Virus genome (UHGV): UHGV-1474357
Reading direction: 5' to 3' (one strand)
DNA from: a virus
DNA: 40,754 bases
How positions within the stretch are numbered: the first letter of the stretch is position 1; each line of letters opens with the position of its first letter. The notes beneath the pieces were generated by a model. The model made no database searches and was not told the DNA's origin. It was given only the letters and a program-made list of their open reading frames with translations. This document shows positions 5,749-35,170 of this stretch, one piece after another. The translations under genes and the position numbers were made by a program.

Positions 5749-5829
5749 AACTTGTTACCTCGGTCTGTTACCGTTGAGGTAATAATTATGCGTATATGGT
5801 TTGATGTCAATAGATATGAGTTAAAAAAA

Positions 5830-5901: not shown

Positions 5902-6486
5902 TTATTGTTTGTTTTTTTCGTTCTGGTTGATGACAAATTCAATGTAACTTTCGATCTTTGCTTTCTCGGTTTCGGGTAACAATGCGTAGCGCGAGCGATC
6001 ATAGTTGATGGTCGCAGGGTCGTGCGGGTGAATCAGTAATTCATAGCCGTGACGCCCGAATGCGGATGCAACATTCTCCAGGGTGGAAATGGAAACGCTG
6101 ACCTCATTGTTTAACAGGCGGCTGATTGTCACCTGGGCTACGCCGGATGCGCGGTGAAGTTTTCCCTGTGTTGAAAGGTCGCGGCTTTCGCTCATCCAGC
6201 GTTCCAGGTTGTGAGCCGCCAGCTGGCCAATGTCGCTTGGGCCGACAGGCTGAAAACCTTCCTGAGAAAGCGAGCGATCGATATCAAGCCAGTTACGGGG
6301 TTTATTGGCGGCAGCTTCAATTTTTCGTGCAACCTGGTCGCCGATAACCTTCTTGCCAAGAGCCCAGCGGTTTACCAGATTTGCCTGAGTTCCAAGTTTT
6401 TCAGCCATCCGCGTCTGAACACCATTGAATTCACGGTCGATCAAGTCGTTGAGATTTTGCCTGCGGACGTCCTGGATACTTTTCAT
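5902..6486 (-). CDS. Prophage repressor (CI-like), two HTH-like segments, no S24 peptidase domain
   Basis: 194 aa; HTH-like segments (QTRMAEKLGTQANLVNRWALGKK and VAQVTISRLLNNEVSVSISTLENVASAFG); divergent from the Cro-like gene; no Ala-Gly/Ser-Lys LexA-like autocleavage module recognisable. Confidence 0.75.
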   Translation of the reverse strand: MKSIQDVRRQNLNDLIDREFNGVQTRMAEKLGTQANLVNRWALGKKVIGDQVARKIEAAANKPRNWLDIDRSLSQEGFQPVGPSDIGQLAAHNLERWMSESRDLSTQGKLHRASGVAQVTISRLLNNEVSVSISTLENVASAFGRHGYELLIHPHDPATINYDRSRYALLPETEKAKIESYIEFVINQNEKNKQ

Positions 6487-6541: not shown

Positions 6542-6556
6542 TTACCCAACAGGTAA
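6542..6556. promoter_or_regulatory. TTACC-N5-GGTAA dyad (TTACCCAACAGGTAA), candidate right operator 1
   Basis: Perfect dyad arms in the repressor/cro intergenic region. Confidence 0.5.
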
Positions 6557-6589
6557 ATGCACCCCACAGGTAACTATCCTTGATTTTTG

Positions 6590-6604
6590 TTACCTTATGG
6601 GTGA
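6590..6604. promoter_or_regulatory. TTACC-N5-GGTGA dyad (TTACCTTATGGGTGA), candidate right operator 2
   Basis: Imperfect dyad located between the -35-like and -10-like hexamers of the putative rightward promoter. Confidence 0.4.
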
Positions 6605-15643: not shown

Positions 15644-15720
15644 TGGCGTGGCATGCAGGATTCGAACCTGCGACCAACCGCTTAGAAGGCGGTTGCTCTG
15701 TCCGACTGAGCTAATGCCAC
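15644..15720 (-). tRNA. tRNA-Arg (anticodon UCU), argU-like, CCA encoded
   Basis: Minus-strand sequence GTGGCAT-TA-GCTC-AGTCGGACA-GAGC-A-ACCGC-CTTCTAA-GCGGT-TGGTC-GCAGG-TTCGAAT-CCTGC-ATGCCAC-G-CCA folds as a canonical cloverleaf with all four stems Watson-Crick paired; anticodon loop CU-UCU-AA. Confidence 0.9.
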
Positions 15721-33105: not shown

Positions 33106-33762
33106 TCAGAAGACCCCTGCCTTGTCGTTGATGTATTCCGCGTGGGTCTGGATATCACGCAGGCATTTACTCACACCGACGATGTAGCAGAACATGGTAG
33201 TCAGCTCCGCCGCCGCGCCCGATACGTCGTGCCCGTCGTCCTGTAACTGGTTCAGCAGATTCATCAGCAGTGAGTTCTCCGTCAGGCCGAGAACACCAGA
33301 TGGGGAATGAATCAGGCTGCGGTAGCCGGGCTTCAGTGGGGCGCTGTATTCTTTTTTGTCTTCCAGCTTGATCGCCTCCATAATGGCGGGCATGAAGCCT
33401 GACAAGACCTTCTCCACTTTTGTTTCTTGTTGTCTTAAACGTTTCTCGCATTCAATGAAGTAGCGTCGCACCTGGCGACCTTTTTCGTTACGCTCGACCA
33501 TCGCCAGCTCTTTGGCTGTATCAAGGGTGAGGTGGTACTCTTTGCGGTTGTGGCCGCCTCTACCAGATGTTTGCTTTCCCAAATTGGAAAGCAAAATATA
33601 GTCTTGATTTTCAATGAATTCGTATTCTGATATGCGATTTGTAATCCATGCTGCAAACACCTTTTTAACACCTAAAAAAGCGTGCAGATCGCGGGCATTA
33701 CAAAGTAGGGCTGTTTCGTTAGATATAGTGCCGTTGAATACGGGGATGAGTTGAGCGTTCAT
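33106..33762 (-). CDS. Antirepressor-like protein (Bro-N/AntA-like N-terminal domain, Ant C-terminal domain)
   Basis: 218 aa; N-terminus [27 protein letters not shown] and central [26 protein letters not shown] resemble phage antirepressor families; GGAG SD; C-terminal 70 aa homologous to the small gene at 34913-35170. Confidence 0.7.
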
Positions 33763-33920
33763 GATGGCGTCTCCACTTAGCGAATTACATCACCACCGCT
33801 GAGACCAATCAGATGGTGGTGAACTGAACGGAGTTGGTCTTACCGGCCTAAGTGGTACCGGCGTCCTTTCGGACCCCCATTCAGCCCACCATAATTCTGG
33901 CATGACTGTGCTATACGCAT

Positions 33921-34030
33921 AAAAAAACCACGTCTGGCGTGGTATGCGCCACTTAGTAATCCGGGAGACCAATCCCGGCACTGGATTTTGCCAGTGCCCG
34001 ATTACTATGGCACAAGAGGAGTGCAATGTA
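33921..34030 (-). ncRNA. Candidate structured leader / small RNA with intrinsic terminator upstream of antirepressor gene
   Basis: Minus-strand hairpins GGCACTGG-CAAAAT-CCAGTGCC and CCGGGA-TTGGTC-TCCCGG, then terminator ACCACGCC-AGA-CGTGGT plus TTTTTTT (33921-33943); promoter-like TTGATT / TTATCA hexamers at about 34081-34049 and a dyad operator at 34034-34048; no credible ORF. Confidence 0.3.
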
Positions 34031-34033
34031 AAT

Positions 34034-34048
34034 TTACCGCAAAGGTAA
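34034..34048. promoter_or_regulatory. TTACC-N5-GGTAA dyad (TTACCGCAAAGGTAA)
   Basis: Perfect arms; directly abuts the -10-like hexamer of the putative leftward ant promoter. Confidence 0.45.
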
Positions 34049-34126
34049 TGATAAACGCGAAGAAATATTAAAATCAACCGTATTTGGTTGATTGCGTTTA
34101 ACGCTTGATCACCTGAAAGCAAGATA

Positions 34127-34141
34127 TTACCTTTAAGGTAA
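34127..34141. promoter_or_regulatory. TTACC-N5-GGTAA dyad (TTACCTTTAAGGTAA)
   Basis: Perfect arms; 20 nt upstream of ATG 34162. Confidence 0.45.
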
Positions 34142-34161
34142 TGTTATTGTGAGGAAAAGCA

Positions 34162-34890
34162 ATGGAAGTTTTCTGGATAGTTGTTGGTGTGGTTGCGGTG
34201 ATTATTTACGTTATCAACCAGAACAAGACTAAGATCTCTGATCGTACGGTCGTTAATCATAACAAAACGATAAAGACCGAAGATGGGGAGATAACGATTA
34301 ATCGTACACAGGTGATAGAACACACCTCTACTCAGTTTCAAAAAACTGGAGGTAATGCGCCTAATATTTCCGCACCTCCTGCTTATGATAGTGCGGTAAT
34401 CCAGACATATTATAAACAGCAGGAGTTAGCAAAAGAGAGGCAACTGATTCAGCCAAAGCCGTTTACAGCTGAGCTTCCACCTGGAGTGTCAACGCGTCCG
34501 GCATATCATGGAAGATTCCCTGGTGATGACATATCGTCTCAGTCATCTAAAAAAGCACCTCAGGCAGTATCAGAGCCAGCAAGAATACCTTCTGTATCGC
34601 CGCCAAAAGAAGAATCAGCTAACAGAGTTTCAAGTGGTAGCAAGCAGTGCTTGCGATGCAGAATAAACCTACCATATGAAAAATTCAGGAAATCGTCAAA
34701 AAATCCAGATGGATTGACTAAGTGGTGTGCAAGGTGTCTCGATGGCCCAAAGAATACACGCCATATGAAGTGGTGCCCAATTTGTAATGTCCGCAGAAAA
34801 CGAACAAGCTTTTACCCTAATAATCAAAATGCGGATGGCTTAATGGCATGGTGCAAAACGTGCTGGGACGAGCACAAAGCGAAACGATAG
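34162..34890 (+). CDS. Membrane-anchored protein with repeated zinc-ribbon-like motifs
   Basis: N-terminal TM helix (VFWIVVGVVAVIIYVI); C-terminal repeats of C-x2-C...NPDGL..WC..C (CLRCRINLPYEKFRKSSKNPDGLTKWCARC; CPICNVRRKRTSFYPNNQNADGLMAWCKTC); AT-rich; bidirectional terminator follows. Confidence 0.6.
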   Translation: MEVFWIVVGVVAVIIYVINQNKTKISDRTVVNHNKTIKTEDGEITINRTQVIEHTSTQFQKTGGNAPNISAPPAYDSAVIQTYYKQQELAKERQLIQPKPFTAELPPGVSTRPAYHGRFPGDDISSQSSKKAPQAVSEPARIPSVSPPKEESANRVSSGSKQCLRCRINLPYEKFRKSSKNPDGLTKWCARCLDGPKNTRHMKWCPICNVRRKRTSFYPNNQNADGLMAWCKTCWDEHKAKR

Positions 34891-34914
34891 GCCGCTCTTG
34901 CGGCCTTTAAATTT
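34890..34914. terminator. Bidirectional intrinsic terminator between convergent genes
   Basis: GGCCGC-TCTT-GCGGCC flanked by A/T runs; stem nearly identical to the terminator at 32033-32057. Confidence 0.6.
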
Positions 34915-35170
34915 ACCGGGTTTGTTTTCGTAATTGTTCGGCACAATAGTCGAGATGTGTTTGCAGATCCTGCATAGACATCTGTGAGCTGGTGACGTAG
35001 TTAATCAGTGCAGTCAGTTCGGCAAGTGGGCCATCGACATTAAATCCATCCTTATCGAGATCCCGGAGTAATTTCATCAAGTGCGATCCCTCCACCAGTG
35101 ACCTGACGCCTCCCGGCGTGTGAATCCTTTCGGTAAATCCGTCTTCCAGTGGATAGTGATACTGCTGCAT
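34913..35170 (-). CDS. Small protein (85 aa) homologous to the antirepressor C-terminal domain; candidate SOS-controlled antirepressor
   Basis: About 40% identity by eye to residues about 150-218 of the 33106-33762 product (shared PL, IH.P.GV, LM.LL, DG..V.G, AELT, D.QTH..Y); GGAG SD; LexA box 19 bp upstream of the ATG. Confidence 0.6.
   Translation of the reverse strand: MQQYHYPLEDGFTERIHTPGGVRSLVEGSHLMKLLRDLDKDGFNVDGPLAELTALINYVTSSQMSMQDLQTHLDYCAEQLRKQTR

What the first reader, a model, noticed from the sequence alone, without database searches (positions are those of the whole stretch)
34162..34890. Membrane-anchored protein with three tandem C-x2-C ... W-C-x2-C zinc-ribbon repeats
A single N-terminal TM helix is followed by a Pro/Ser-rich linker and repeated cysteine motifs each containing NPDGL/NADGL. 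The gene has its own dyad operator and a bidirectional terminator and is AT-rich. The architecture (membrane anchor plus zinc ribbons) is unusual for a phage moron and could mediate superinfection exclusion or membrane-associated nucleic-acid binding.
Basis: inference. Interest (0 to 1): 0.5.

Follow-up and report, generated by a model that had tools for sequence, protein, structure and literature searches.

The report
Membrane-tethered double zinc-ribbon phage protein
A real, well-conserved accessory gene of an E. coli epsilon15/phiV10-type prophage encodes a protein anchored in the inner membrane whose very basic tail of two (not three) zinc ribbons faces the cytoplasm; it sits under an operator of the phage's own repressor, and its function, most plausibly acting on DNA at the membrane, is still unknown.

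Summary
The ORF (34162-34890, +, 242 aa) is real. All 56 copies examined are intact, and pN/pS is 0.07 in the zinc domain against 0.72 in the linker. It has an N-terminal TM helix, a Pro/Ser-rich linker and TWO C-x2-C-x22-C-x2-C units, not three.

It lies in a cassette of about 870 bp (about 34050-34919) that is absent from phiV10 and phiv142-3, with its own promoter and terminator, so it is a true moron.

Its "dyad operator" is one of 11 intergenic copies of TTACC-N5-GGTAA (0.07 expected by chance). This is the prophage's dispersed operator, and here it overlaps the -10/+1. The gene is therefore predicted to be repressed in the lysogen and switched on at infection or induction.

The zinc module is a sub-threshold Stc1-like unit. 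It resembles the accessory zinc fingers of viral HNH/EndoVII nucleases, lacks catalytic residues and carries a net charge of +14.

Distant relatives keep the same architecture and usually abut cI, sometimes with a secreted nuclease gene following.

The family is uncharacterised (phrog_6762). My best guess, at low confidence, is a membrane-tethered DNA-binding exclusion or defence factor. Rivals are a tether for the phage's own genome and a protein-sequestering adaptor.

The parts
34050..34919 (.). Accessory cassette (moron): promoter, operator, gene and terminator. It replaces about 45 bp of the 'empty site' in phiv142-3 and phiV10.
   Evidence: blastn breakpoints 34054/34913. The junction alignments put the ends at about 34050 and 34919. 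Present in 133 of 5426 complete E. coli genomes, always chromosomal.
34105..34110 (+). Putative -35 hexamer TTGATC
   Evidence: TTGAnC-17 nt-TACCTT is kept in four lineages (E. coli; Enterobacter/Citrobacter/Salmonella type; L076; Serratia) although the spacers are unrelated. The pattern occurs once in the whole window. This is inference; no transcription start site is mapped.
34128..34133 (+). Putative -10 hexamer TACCTT, embedded in the left half-site of the operator
   Evidence: It is a weak match to the consensus (3 of 6), so the generic promoter scan did not list it.
34126..34142 (.). 17-bp perfect palindromic operator ATTACCTTTAAGGTAAT
   Evidence: One of 11 TTACC-N5-GGTAA sites in the window, against 0.07 expected. 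An equivalent site lies 32-39 nt before the ATG in the 66 loci that have it, spanning 100% to about 48% aa identity; 24 loci in the same identity-sorted table, from about 54% identity downward, lack it.
34151..34155 (+). Shine-Dalgarno GAGGA
   Evidence: Read directly from the sequence.
34162..34890 (+). CDS, 242 aa, family phrog_6762
   Evidence: phrog_6762 E=1.1e-150 over 1-242/242. 56 of 56 copies are intact; pN/pS is 0.26 overall.
34168..34221 (+). Codons for the TM helix (residues 3-20, VFWIVVGVVAVIIYVINQ), predicted N-out/C-in
   Evidence: AF2 helix 3-20, pLDDT about 90. Hydropathy analysis. The flank charges are -1 on the N side and +3 over residues 20-35 on the C side. The helix sequence is nearly invariant across genera.
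34222..34335 (+). Conserved basic juxtamembrane segment (residues 21-58), predicted beta-hairpin at low confidence
   Evidence: Alignment conservation. AF2 strands 27-39 and 42-54 with pLDDT below 50.
34336..34635 (+). Variable Pro/Ser/Gln-rich disordered linker (residues 59-158)
   Evidence: Variable in length and sequence among homologues. pN/pS 0.72. pLDDT below 50 apart from a helix at 77-93.
34648..34737 (+). Zinc-ribbon unit 1 (C163-x2-C166 ... NPDGL ... W-C189-x2-C192)
   Evidence: The Cys are invariant. pLDDT above 92. Sub-threshold Stc1 hit on 161-193.
34774..34863 (+). Zinc-ribbon unit 2 (C205-x2-C208 ... NADGL ... W-C231-x2-C234)
   Evidence: As for unit 1. The PHROG endonuclease VII, Lar-like and HNH profiles hit 197-242. 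pN/pS of residues 159-242 is 0.066.
34889..34916 (+). Intrinsic-terminator-like hairpin AGGCCGC-TCTT-GCGGCCT plus TTAAATTTAC. It belongs to the cassette and lies between convergent genes.
   Evidence: + strand only. Absent from the empty site of phiv142-3 and phiV10.
5902..6486 (-). Presumed trans-acting factor: the prophage repressor (194 aa, HTH_3)
   Evidence: Pfam HTH_3 E=1.2e-9. One consensus and two degenerate operators lie at 6542-6604, between this gene and a divergent cro-like ORF; two more lie just downstream at 5768 and 5830. The same repressor was shown experimentally to block lytic genes in phage ZX5 (PMC9782041). Binding to this motif is inferred.

Best explanation
**Anatomy (about 0.85 confidence)**

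The gene is an accessory cassette in an E. coli Uetakevirus (epsilon15/phiV10-type) prophage. It encodes a bitopic inner-membrane protein.
- A two-residue N-terminus lies outside, followed by one conserved TM helix.
- Next come a conserved basic juxtamembrane segment and a flexible Pro/Ser-rich tether of about 100 residues.
- In the cytoplasm sits a compact tandem of two Cys4 zinc ribbons with a net charge of about +14.
- These are the non-catalytic, Stc1-like zinc modules that viral HNH/endonuclease VII enzymes carry as accessory domains.

**Regulation (inferred, about 0.6)**
- Transcription starts from a weak promoter, TTGATC-17-TACCTT.
- Its -10/+1 lies inside a perfect copy of the prophage's dispersed 17-bp operator.
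- The immunity repressor should therefore keep the gene off in the lysogen. The gene should fire when repressor is absent, that is, early after infection and on induction.
- An intrinsic terminator then stops transcription.

**Function (inferred, about 0.3)**
- The tether holds a polyanion-binding zinc domain at the cytoplasmic face of the membrane.
- There it could capture or obstruct DNA (or the ejection machinery) of another phage entering the cell. This would be an exclusion or defence factor comparable in logic to early-expressed T4 Imm.
- In lambdoid relatives the same protein is instead co-transcribed with cI, in the rexAB slot. In some of them a secreted nuclease gene follows.
For: **Real, selected gene**
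- 56 of 56 copies are intact.
- pN/pS is 0.066 in the zinc domain, 0.27 in the TM plus juxtamembrane part and 0.72 in the linker.

**Cassette**
- It is an indel relative to phiV10 and phiv142-3.
- It is present in only 133 of 5426 E. coli genomes.

**Topology**
- TM helix 3-20.
- Positive-inside charge bias, with a +14 C-terminal domain.
- The same zinc unit occurs in soluble cytoplasmic enzymes: HNH, SF1 and ResIII helicases, and REase_MTES_1575.

**Zinc module**
- pLDDT above 92.
- BFVD hits to Zn-finger and HNH proteins of giant viruses and actinophages, down to E=1.6e-7.
- PHROG endonuclease VII and HNH profiles at 1e-5 to 2e-11.
- The basic charge is conserved in 85 relatives: median +14, minimum +7.

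**Operator**
- 11 sites against 0.07 expected, all intergenic and clustered around the repressor gene.
- The promoter/operator geometry is conserved across lineages.

**Architecture**
- It is kept even where the TM and linker sequences are unrelated.

**Context**
- The gene lies directly after cI in the Aeromonas phage phiARM81mr and in the relatives L097-L101 and L106. It is convergent with cI in L104.
- Antirepressor families are the commonest neighbours.
- A signal-peptide SNase+Excalibur gene overlaps its 3' end in L097-L101.
Against: - There is no experimental datum and no similarity to any known exclusion or defence protein (PADLOC 0 hits; Sie-like phrog E=0.88).
- If the gene is repressed in the lysogen, it cannot protect the lysogen from heteroimmune phages. 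That weakens a classical Sie role in this prophage and sits uneasily with the cI-operon position of distant relatives.
- DNA binding, zinc binding, topology, the promoter and repressor binding are all unmeasured.
- The -10 is a poor consensus match (one search did not list it).
Confidence: 0.35

Rival explanations
1. Tether for the phage's own genome. An early protein attaches the infecting or replicating phage DNA (or its replication or packaging machinery) to the inner membrane. This is what phi29 p16.7 does with an N-terminal TM helix and a C-terminal DNA-binding domain.
For: - Same overall architecture: N-terminal anchor plus a C-terminal basic domain.
- Predicted early, repressor-controlled expression.
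- p16.7 is a membrane protein that recruits phi29 DNA and terminal protein to the membrane (PMC4974454).
Against: - The gene is absent from very close relatives that replicate normally (phiV10, phiv142-3, ZX5).
- In lambdoid relatives it lies in the cI operon, so it is expressed when the phage is not replicating.
- There is no sequence or fold relation to p16.7.
Confidence: 0.17
2. Protein-binding adaptor in the immunity circuit. The tandem zinc fingers act like LIM or Stc1 modules and sequester a protein at the membrane. The partner could be the repressor, an antirepressor or a host factor, and the effect would be to bias the lysis-lysogeny decision or to take over a host function.
For: - Persistent adjacency to cI or to antirepressor genes in unrelated phage types.
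- Stc1 is a protein-protein adaptor with a LIM-like tandem zinc finger (PMC2875855).
- The TM helix sequence is unusually conserved, which suggests a specific intramembrane contact.
- ZipA-like anchor-linker-globular layout; JGI names one relative 'ZipA'.
Against: - Immunity regions are generic insertion slots for morons, so adjacency may carry no functional meaning.
- No partner gene is conserved next to it.
- An extreme positive charge conserved across the family fits a polyanion ligand better than a protein surface.
- The closest structural relatives are nuclease accessory domains.
Confidence: 0.2
3. Opposite topology. The helix is an uncleaved N-in/C-out signal anchor, and the eight cysteines form disulfides in a periplasmic domain that acts on the envelope or on incoming virions.
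For: - Many Sie proteins act outside the cytoplasm.
- In two contexts the neighbouring genes encode secreted Excalibur-domain proteins.
Against: - The N-terminus is acidic (ME-) and the C-flank is basic. The C-terminal domain carries +14, which strongly disfavours export.
- The same unit is found in cytoplasmic nucleases and helicases.
- The regular CxxC...CxxC spacing is typical of zinc sites.
Confidence: 0.05
4. Cryptic membrane-bound nuclease. The units are HNH-derived beta-beta-alpha modules that retain catalysis through non-canonical residues (for example the conserved Tyr218 or His201) and cut DNA at the membrane.
For: - N198, T199, H201 and Y218 are nearly invariant in the close family.
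Against: - No HNH or Endonuclease_7 Pfam hit.
- Neither beta-hairpin contains His or Asp-His.
- H201 and Y218 are not conserved in the wider family.
- The PDB profile search matches only PacI residues 2-41 at E=6.7. I take this to be its N-terminal zinc motif rather than its active site; I did not check that.
- In related nucleases the unit is additional to a separate HNH core.
Confidence: 0.04

Closest known systems
phrog_6762 (PHROGs v4, 'unknown function') / NCBI 'hypothetical protein' cluster P0001 (424 member sequences)
   Same: Full-length match over 1-242/242, E=1.1e-150. TL-2011b carries a 97% identical ORF.
   Different: Nothing differs. This is the family itself, and it has no described function. 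In TL-2011b the ORF is not even annotated as a CDS, only as a misc_feature.
Stc1 domain, Pfam PF12898 (LIM-like tandem zinc finger of S. pombe Stc1; PMC2875855)
   Same: Each unit aligns to the second half of the profile (positions 52-83 of 84). Relatives found with the window protein as query pass the curated threshold (P0099 and P0113 at about 60 bits; P0194 at 25.0 bits).
   Different: The window protein scores 21.0 bits against a cut-off of 24.8. Stc1 is a soluble eukaryotic RNAi-chromatin adaptor. Here the module is bacterial or viral, strongly basic and membrane-tethered.
Accessory Cys4 zinc modules of viral HNH / endonuclease VII and beta-beta-alpha-Me restriction enzymes (Hpy99I 3fc3, PacI 3m7k)
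   Different: There is no nuclease core and there are no catalytic His/Asn residues. The unit is joined to a membrane anchor instead of an enzyme.
Bacillus phage phi29 p16.7 (membrane-anchored DNA-binding early protein)
   Same: N-terminal TM helix plus a C-terminal nucleic-acid-binding domain; an accessory early gene (PMC4974454). This is the closest analogue in how it might work.
   Different: The DNA-binding fold is unrelated. There is no coiled coil, a long disordered linker takes its place, and the host and phage type differ. No homology.
E. coli ZipA
   Same: Layout is the same: N-out/C-in single-pass anchor, then a charged segment, a Pro/Gln-rich flexible tether and a C-terminal globular binding domain. 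This description of ZipA is from my own knowledge. JGI labelled one relative 'ZipA'.
   Different: No ZipA domain hit. The C-terminal domain is a zinc-ribbon tandem, not the FtsZ-binding fold.
Small inner-membrane exclusion proteins (T4 Imm, P22 SieA, lambda RexB) and the cI-rexAB gene slot
   Same: A small membrane protein encoded by an accessory gene. Relatives occupy the slot directly downstream of cI. What these exclusion proteins do is stated from my own knowledge.
   Different: No sequence similarity. Those proteins lack a cytoplasmic zinc domain. In this prophage the gene is predicted to be repressor-controlled rather than lysogen-expressed.

Membership tests
phrog_6762 | Significant full-length match to the family profile | tested here: met
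   E=1.1e-150, 501 bits, 1-242 of 242.
Pfam Stc1 (PF12898) | Whole-protein score at or above the gathering threshold (24.8 bits) | tested here: not met
   21.0 bits, E=5.1e-4. Full-length relatives are borderline (24.7 and 25.0 bits). More distant multi-repeat relatives pass clearly (33.9-60.9 bits). The homology is transitive only.
Pfam Stc1 (PF12898) | Eight conserved cysteines forming two Cys4 sites | tested here: met
   C163, 166, 189, 192, 205, 208, 231 and 234 are invariant in the domain alignment of 30 diverse relatives, and all eight are also invariant in the 23-sequence full-length alignment. Zinc binding itself was not measured.
HNH / endonuclease VII (beta-beta-alpha-Me) nucleases | Catalytic His at the end of beta-1, plus Asn and His/Asn as metal ligands; a hit to PF01844 or PF02945 | tested here: not met
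   No such Pfam hit at E up to 10. The segments C166-C189 and C208-C231 contain no His. Only fold resemblance was found.
Phage moron (extra gene with its own promoter and terminator, absent from close relatives) | Indel relative to closely related genomes | tested here: met
   About 870 bp replace about 45 bp of phiv142-3 and phiV10.
Phage moron | Own promoter and own terminator flanking the gene | tested here: inconclusive
   The terminator-like hairpin is found. The promoter is inferred from the conserved TTGAnC-17-TACCTT but is weak, and no transcription start site is mapped.
Phage moron | Expressed from the repressed prophage | tested here: inconclusive
   The operator overlaps the -10/+1, which argues against it. 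No expression data are available.
Known anti-phage defence / superinfection exclusion proteins | Similarity to a described defence or Sie family | tested here: not met
   PADLOC-DB gave 0 hits at E up to 1. The Sie-like phrog_8545 scored E=0.88 on the TM region only.
Known anti-phage defence / superinfection exclusion proteins | Reduces infection by other phages when expressed | not testable with these tools
   Needs plating and DNA-entry assays.
phi29 p16.7-like membrane DNA organisers | N-terminal TM anchor with the C-terminal domain in the cytoplasm | tested here: met
   By prediction only.
phi29 p16.7-like membrane DNA organisers | Demonstrated DNA binding; homology to p16.7 | not tested
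   No p16.7 sequence was compared. The zinc-ribbon fold differs from p16.7's helical domain (stated from my own knowledge). DNA binding is not testable here.
Zinc-binding anti-sigma factors (ZAS) | N-terminal cytoplasmic H-x3-C-x2-C domain followed by a TM segment | tested here: not met

The most novel reading that the evidence does not exclude
The family may define a previously unrecognised way for temperate phages to act on DNA at the membrane. A flexible, membrane-anchored 'fishing line' would end in a nuclease-derived but catalytically dead double zinc finger that seizes DNA as it emerges at the cytoplasmic face of the inner membrane.
- In Uetakeviruses it would be gated directly by the immunity repressor.
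- In lambdoid phages it would be co-expressed with cI and teamed with a secreted nuclease.

Together these would form a new envelope-level superinfection-exclusion or defence module.
Probability: 0.15. Interest if true: 0.7.

Novelty: new variant of a known kind. Interest (0 to 1): 0.42.

Why it matters
- Small membrane proteins encoded beside phage immunity genes have repeatedly turned out to be exclusion or defence factors. This family is widespread in Enterobacterales, Aeromonas and metagenomic phages: 412 representative clusters share the zinc module, and dozens share the full architecture.
- It is under strong purifying selection and has no annotation at all.
- It offers a simple, testable case of a nuclease-associated DNA-binding module re-used without the nuclease and fixed to the membrane.
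- The prophage around it shows a P1-like network of dispersed operators combined with an isrK/C4 antisense-RNA antirepressor switch. That makes it a compact model for multi-layer immunity in podoviral prophages of pathogenic E. coli.

Tried and rejected
- **Three repeats.** Rejected. There are only four CxxC motifs, which make two units.
- **A private operator for this gene.** Rejected. The dyad is one of 11 copies.
- **Known domain assignment.** Pfam gives only sub-threshold Stc1. NCBIfam gives nothing. PADLOC gives nothing.
- **Solved structures by sequence.** Nothing significant with the single domain or with a 30-sequence profile (best E=0.08, PacI E=6.7).
- **Species-representative genomes.** Only 2 loci were found, because the gene is a sporadic prophage gene.
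- **A conserved partner gene.** Pfam statistics on 80 neighbouring ORFs from 17 non-redundant loci found none, only recurrent antirepressor families, lysis genes and toxin-antitoxin modules.
- **Literature.** No paper was found on this protein, on Stc1 domains in phages, or on the Uetakevirus operator. The epsilon15 genome paper could not be opened. My recollection that it reports a similar 17-bp operator is therefore unverified.
- **PF27269 'YonG_N'.** Faint precomputed hits exist in distant relatives, but the family is not in the Pfam copy I could scan, so it remains uninterpreted.
- **First structure job.** It was repeated with alignment A2.
Full report
**1. The observation**

Its ATG follows a GAGGA Shine-Dalgarno by 6-7 nt.

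- Residues 3-20 (VFWIVVGVVAVIIYVINQ) form a strongly hydrophobic helix (hydropathy; AF2 helix with pLDDT about 90).
- About 100 residues follow that are rich in Pro, Ser and Gln, with pLDDT mostly below 50.
- The last 83 residues hold eight cysteines: C163/C166, C189/C192, C205/C208 and C231/C234.
- These cysteines make two units of identical spacing, C-x2-C-x22-C-x2-C. One unit contains NPDGL and the other NADGL.

"W-C-x2-C" does occur three times, which probably explains the count. The dyad (34126-34142) and the hairpin (34889-34906) are real. The AT-richness is mild: 43.5% GC against 48.3% for the window, the 9th percentile.

**2. A real gene under selection**

- The window is a Uetakevirus (epsilon15/phiV10-like) prophage of E. 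coli.
- The 858-bp query covering the cassette (34055-34912) is 100% identical in E. coli TW10722. It occurs in 133 of 5426 complete E. coli genomes, always on the chromosome.
- All 56 copies examined are intact, and they fall into 39 alleles.
- pN/pS is 0.26 overall: 0.066 in the zinc domain, 0.27 in the TM plus juxtamembrane part, and 0.72 in the linker.
- The protein is a full-length member of phrog_6762, "unknown function".
- In phage TL-2011b the 97% identical ORF is intact but annotated only as a misc_feature.

**3. A moron cassette**

- Against phiv142-3 and phiV10, homology stops at 34054 and resumes at 34913.
- The junction alignments show that about 870 bp (about 34050-34919) replace about 45 bp of the empty site.
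- The cassette carries the promoter region, the operator, the gene and the hairpin terminator.
- On its left it abuts the control region of an antirepressor operon.
- On its right it is convergent with an epsilon15 gp19-like ORF.

**4. The "own dyad operator" is the phage's general operator**

- TTACC-N5-GGTAA occurs 11 times in the window, against 0.07 expected by chance. The 17-bp consensus is ATTACCnnnnnGGTAAT.
- All 11 copies lie between genes, taking the likely true starts of the small-terminase and gp19-like ORFs:
  - two just downstream of the repressor gene;
  - one consensus copy plus two degenerate copies between the repressor gene (5902..6486, HTH_3) and a divergent cro-like ORF;
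  - the rest upstream of a DUF1064 gene, the small terminase, the portal gene, the ant operon, this gene, and the gp19-like/tailspike divergent pair.
- This is the pattern of a repressor with dispersed operators, as in P1 C1 (my knowledge).
- The same repressor was shown experimentally to shut down lytic genes in the related phage ZX5 (PMC9782041). Its binding to this motif is my inference.

The copy in front of this gene is the most symmetrical of all. TTGATC (34105-34110), a 17-nt spacer and TACCTT (34128-34133) form a sigma-70-like promoter whose -10 lies inside the operator's left half-site. The same geometry, TTGAnC-17-TACCTT within the operator, is kept in homologues of 48-63% protein identity from Enterobacter/Citrobacter/Salmonella-type, Serratia and other prophages, although the spacer sequences are unrelated. 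The pattern occurs only once in the window.

An operator lies 32-39 nt before the ATG in 66 of the 90 loci tabulated, which span 100% to about 48% identity. The other 24 loci, from about 54% identity downward, lack it.

An operator over the -10/+1, only 20 nt from the ATG, can only repress. So in this prophage the gene is predicted to be silent in the lysogen and expressed when repressor is absent, that is, early in infection or on induction. This is inference; no transcription data exist.

**5. What the protein is**

*Topology.* The N-terminus is acidic (ME-), the flank after the helix is basic, and the C-terminal domain carries a net +14. The predicted orientation is therefore N-out/C-in, with the zinc domain in the cytoplasm. 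This fits zinc-bound cysteines, and it fits the occurrence of the same unit in cytoplasmic enzymes.

*The unit.*
- It scores below threshold on Pfam Stc1 (21.0 against 24.8 bits).
- An exhaustive search of 1.84 billion cluster representatives found 412 proteins at E<=1e-3.
- Those hits fall into two classes:
  - proteins of about 180-240 aa with an N-terminal hydrophobic helix and two C-terminal units;
  - soluble proteins with 3-10 units.
- Some of the multi-repeat proteins pass the Stc1 threshold. Several of the hits scanned carry HNH, SF1-helicase, ResIII/DEAD, REase_MTES_1575 or HEAT domains alongside the unit.
- PHROG profiles annotated endonuclease VII, HNH endonuclease, Lar-like and primase match the unit.

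*Structure.*
- The AF2 model of residues 160-242 is confident (pLDDT above 92).
- BFVD returns Zn-finger and HNH proteins of giant viruses and actinophages, an E. coli phage endonuclease VII and a phage "Stc1 domain" protein, down to E=1.6e-7.
- Neither beta-hairpin contains His and there is no HNH Pfam hit, so the module is non-catalytic.
- No solved structure matches by sequence.

*Charge and architecture.*
- The strong positive charge is a family trait: median +14 and minimum +7 in 85 relatives. This points to a polyanionic ligand, most simply nucleic acid.
- The layout of anchor, tether and tandem zinc domain is kept even in relatives whose TM and linker sequences are unrelated, for example one with a coiled-coil linker.
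- Tethering the domain to the membrane is therefore the selected feature.

**6. Context elsewhere**

- In podoviral prophages of Serratia and Salmonella the gene is again a lone, oppositely oriented cassette. In the Serratia loci it lies next to a KilA-N/ANT antirepressor gene.
- Bro-N, ORF6N, KilA-N and ANT antirepressor families are the commonest neighbours in 17 non-redundant loci. No partner gene is conserved.
- In lambdoid relatives of 26-30% identity the gene lies 18-19 bp downstream of a cI (Peptidase_S24) repressor gene on the same strand. These are the Aeromonas phage phiARM81mr, L106 and L097-L101.
- In L104 it is convergent with cI.
- In L097-L101 its 3' end overlaps a gene for an SNase+Excalibur nuclease with a typical signal peptide.

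That position is lambda's rexAB slot, so those relatives should be expressed in the lysogen. The family thus shows two regulatory regimes, and both are tied to the immunity system.

**7. Mechanism**

What is shown or strongly predicted:
- a selected accessory gene;
- a single-pass anchor;
- a flexible tether;
- a basic, non-catalytic double zinc ribbon of the kind that accompanies viral nucleases;
- an operator of the prophage's own network over the promoter.

What is inferred: the domain binds DNA (or RNA) at the cytoplasmic face of the inner membrane.

| Reading | Probability | Main support | Main weakness |
|---|---|---|---|
| Exclusion or defence against other incoming phage DNA (in this prophage during the repressor-free window, as with T4 Imm; in lambdoid relatives in the lysogen) | about 0.3-0.35 | Moron status, sporadic distribution, the cI slot, the nuclease partner | Predicted repression in this lysogen; no similarity to known systems |
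| p16.7-like tether for the phage's own DNA | 0.17 | Architecture and predicted early timing (PMC4974454) | Dispensable in close relatives; cI-operon position in others |
| LIM/Stc1-like protein adaptor in the immunity circuit | 0.2 | Adjacency to cI and ant; conserved TM helix; Stc1 precedent (PMC2875855) | Conserved extreme positive charge |
| Inverted topology (periplasmic domain) | 0.05 | Secreted Excalibur-domain neighbours | Charge bias; same unit in cytoplasmic enzymes |
| Cryptic membrane-bound nuclease | 0.04 | Best structural neighbours are nucleases | No catalytic residues; no HNH hit |

**8. Novelty and verdict**

The gene is already in databases as an anonymous hypothetical protein. 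Its parts (a TM anchor, an Stc1-like zinc ribbon, a repressor operator, a terminator) are all known kinds. The combination is uncharacterised and unlike any described exclusion, defence or DNA-organising protein, so I file it as a new variant of a known kind.

Interest is moderate at 0.42. The candidate is clean and widespread, and cheap decisive experiments exist.

Noticed in passing
window 5768, 5830, 6542 (plus degenerate copies at 6560 and 6590), 8866, 8928, 12836, 16043, 33025, 34034, 34127, 35247: Eleven intergenic copies of TTACC-N5-GGTAA (0.07 expected) form a dispersed operator network around the 194-aa HTH repressor gene (5902..6486, -). They sit in front of early, packaging, portal, antirepressor and tailspike-region transcription units. 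This recalls P1 C1 operators. I recall from memory, unverified, that a similar 17-bp motif was reported for epsilon15.
   Followed up: partly
window 33812-33896 (-) and 33921-33997 (-), upstream of 33106..33762 (-): Rfam finds a C4 antisense RNA (61 bits) and an isrK Hfq-binding RNA (68 bits) in the leader of an AntA-type antirepressor gene. This is a P1 immI / Gifsy-1 isrK-anrP-like RNA switch in a Uetakevirus. The 110-aa ORF 33790..34122 (-) that overlaps them is therefore probably spurious. The operator at 34034-34048 is centred about 44 bp upstream of the predicted isrK start, a position that could activate rather than repress.
   Followed up: partly
window 33106..33762 (-) versus 34913..35170 (-): The C-terminal 74 residues of the antirepressor are 42% identical (E=7e-20) to the whole 85-aa epsilon15 gp19-like ORF on the other side of the cassette. 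This is a duplicated small domain of unknown role flanking the insertion site.
   Followed up: partly
L097-L101 (about 7001-8307 in L097); also L102/L103 3783-4495: In lambdoid relatives the order is cI(S24), then the TM-zinc-ribbon gene, then an overlapping gene for an SNase+Excalibur nuclease with a signal peptide. In another phage type a small Excalibur-domain ORF sits immediately upstream of the relative. This may be a two-gene module.
   Followed up: partly
window 34033-34049 and 34910-34919 (cassette junctions): The left junction of the cassette lies directly after the ant-operon operator. The right end contains a TTTACC half-site. This suggests the cassette may have been acquired by recombination at operator-like sequences.
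   Followed up: no
distant relatives P0199, P0203, P0205, P0074 and others: These carry precomputed faint hits to Pfam PF27269 'YonG_N', a family newer than the Pfam copy I could scan. What it covers in these proteins is unknown.
   Followed up: no
window 15644-15720 (-): tRNA-Arg (anticodon TCT) lies inside the prophage, between the packaging and portal gene blocks.
   Followed up: no
L077 / L082, about 80 nt upstream of the homologue: Two homologues of about 54% identity to the window protein (I did not establish their host organism) lack the TTACC operator. In the equivalent upstream region they carry a different perfect dyad, TTAACC-N5-GGTTAA. This suggests the cassette's operator is swapped to match the immunity specificity of the resident phage.
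   Followed up: no
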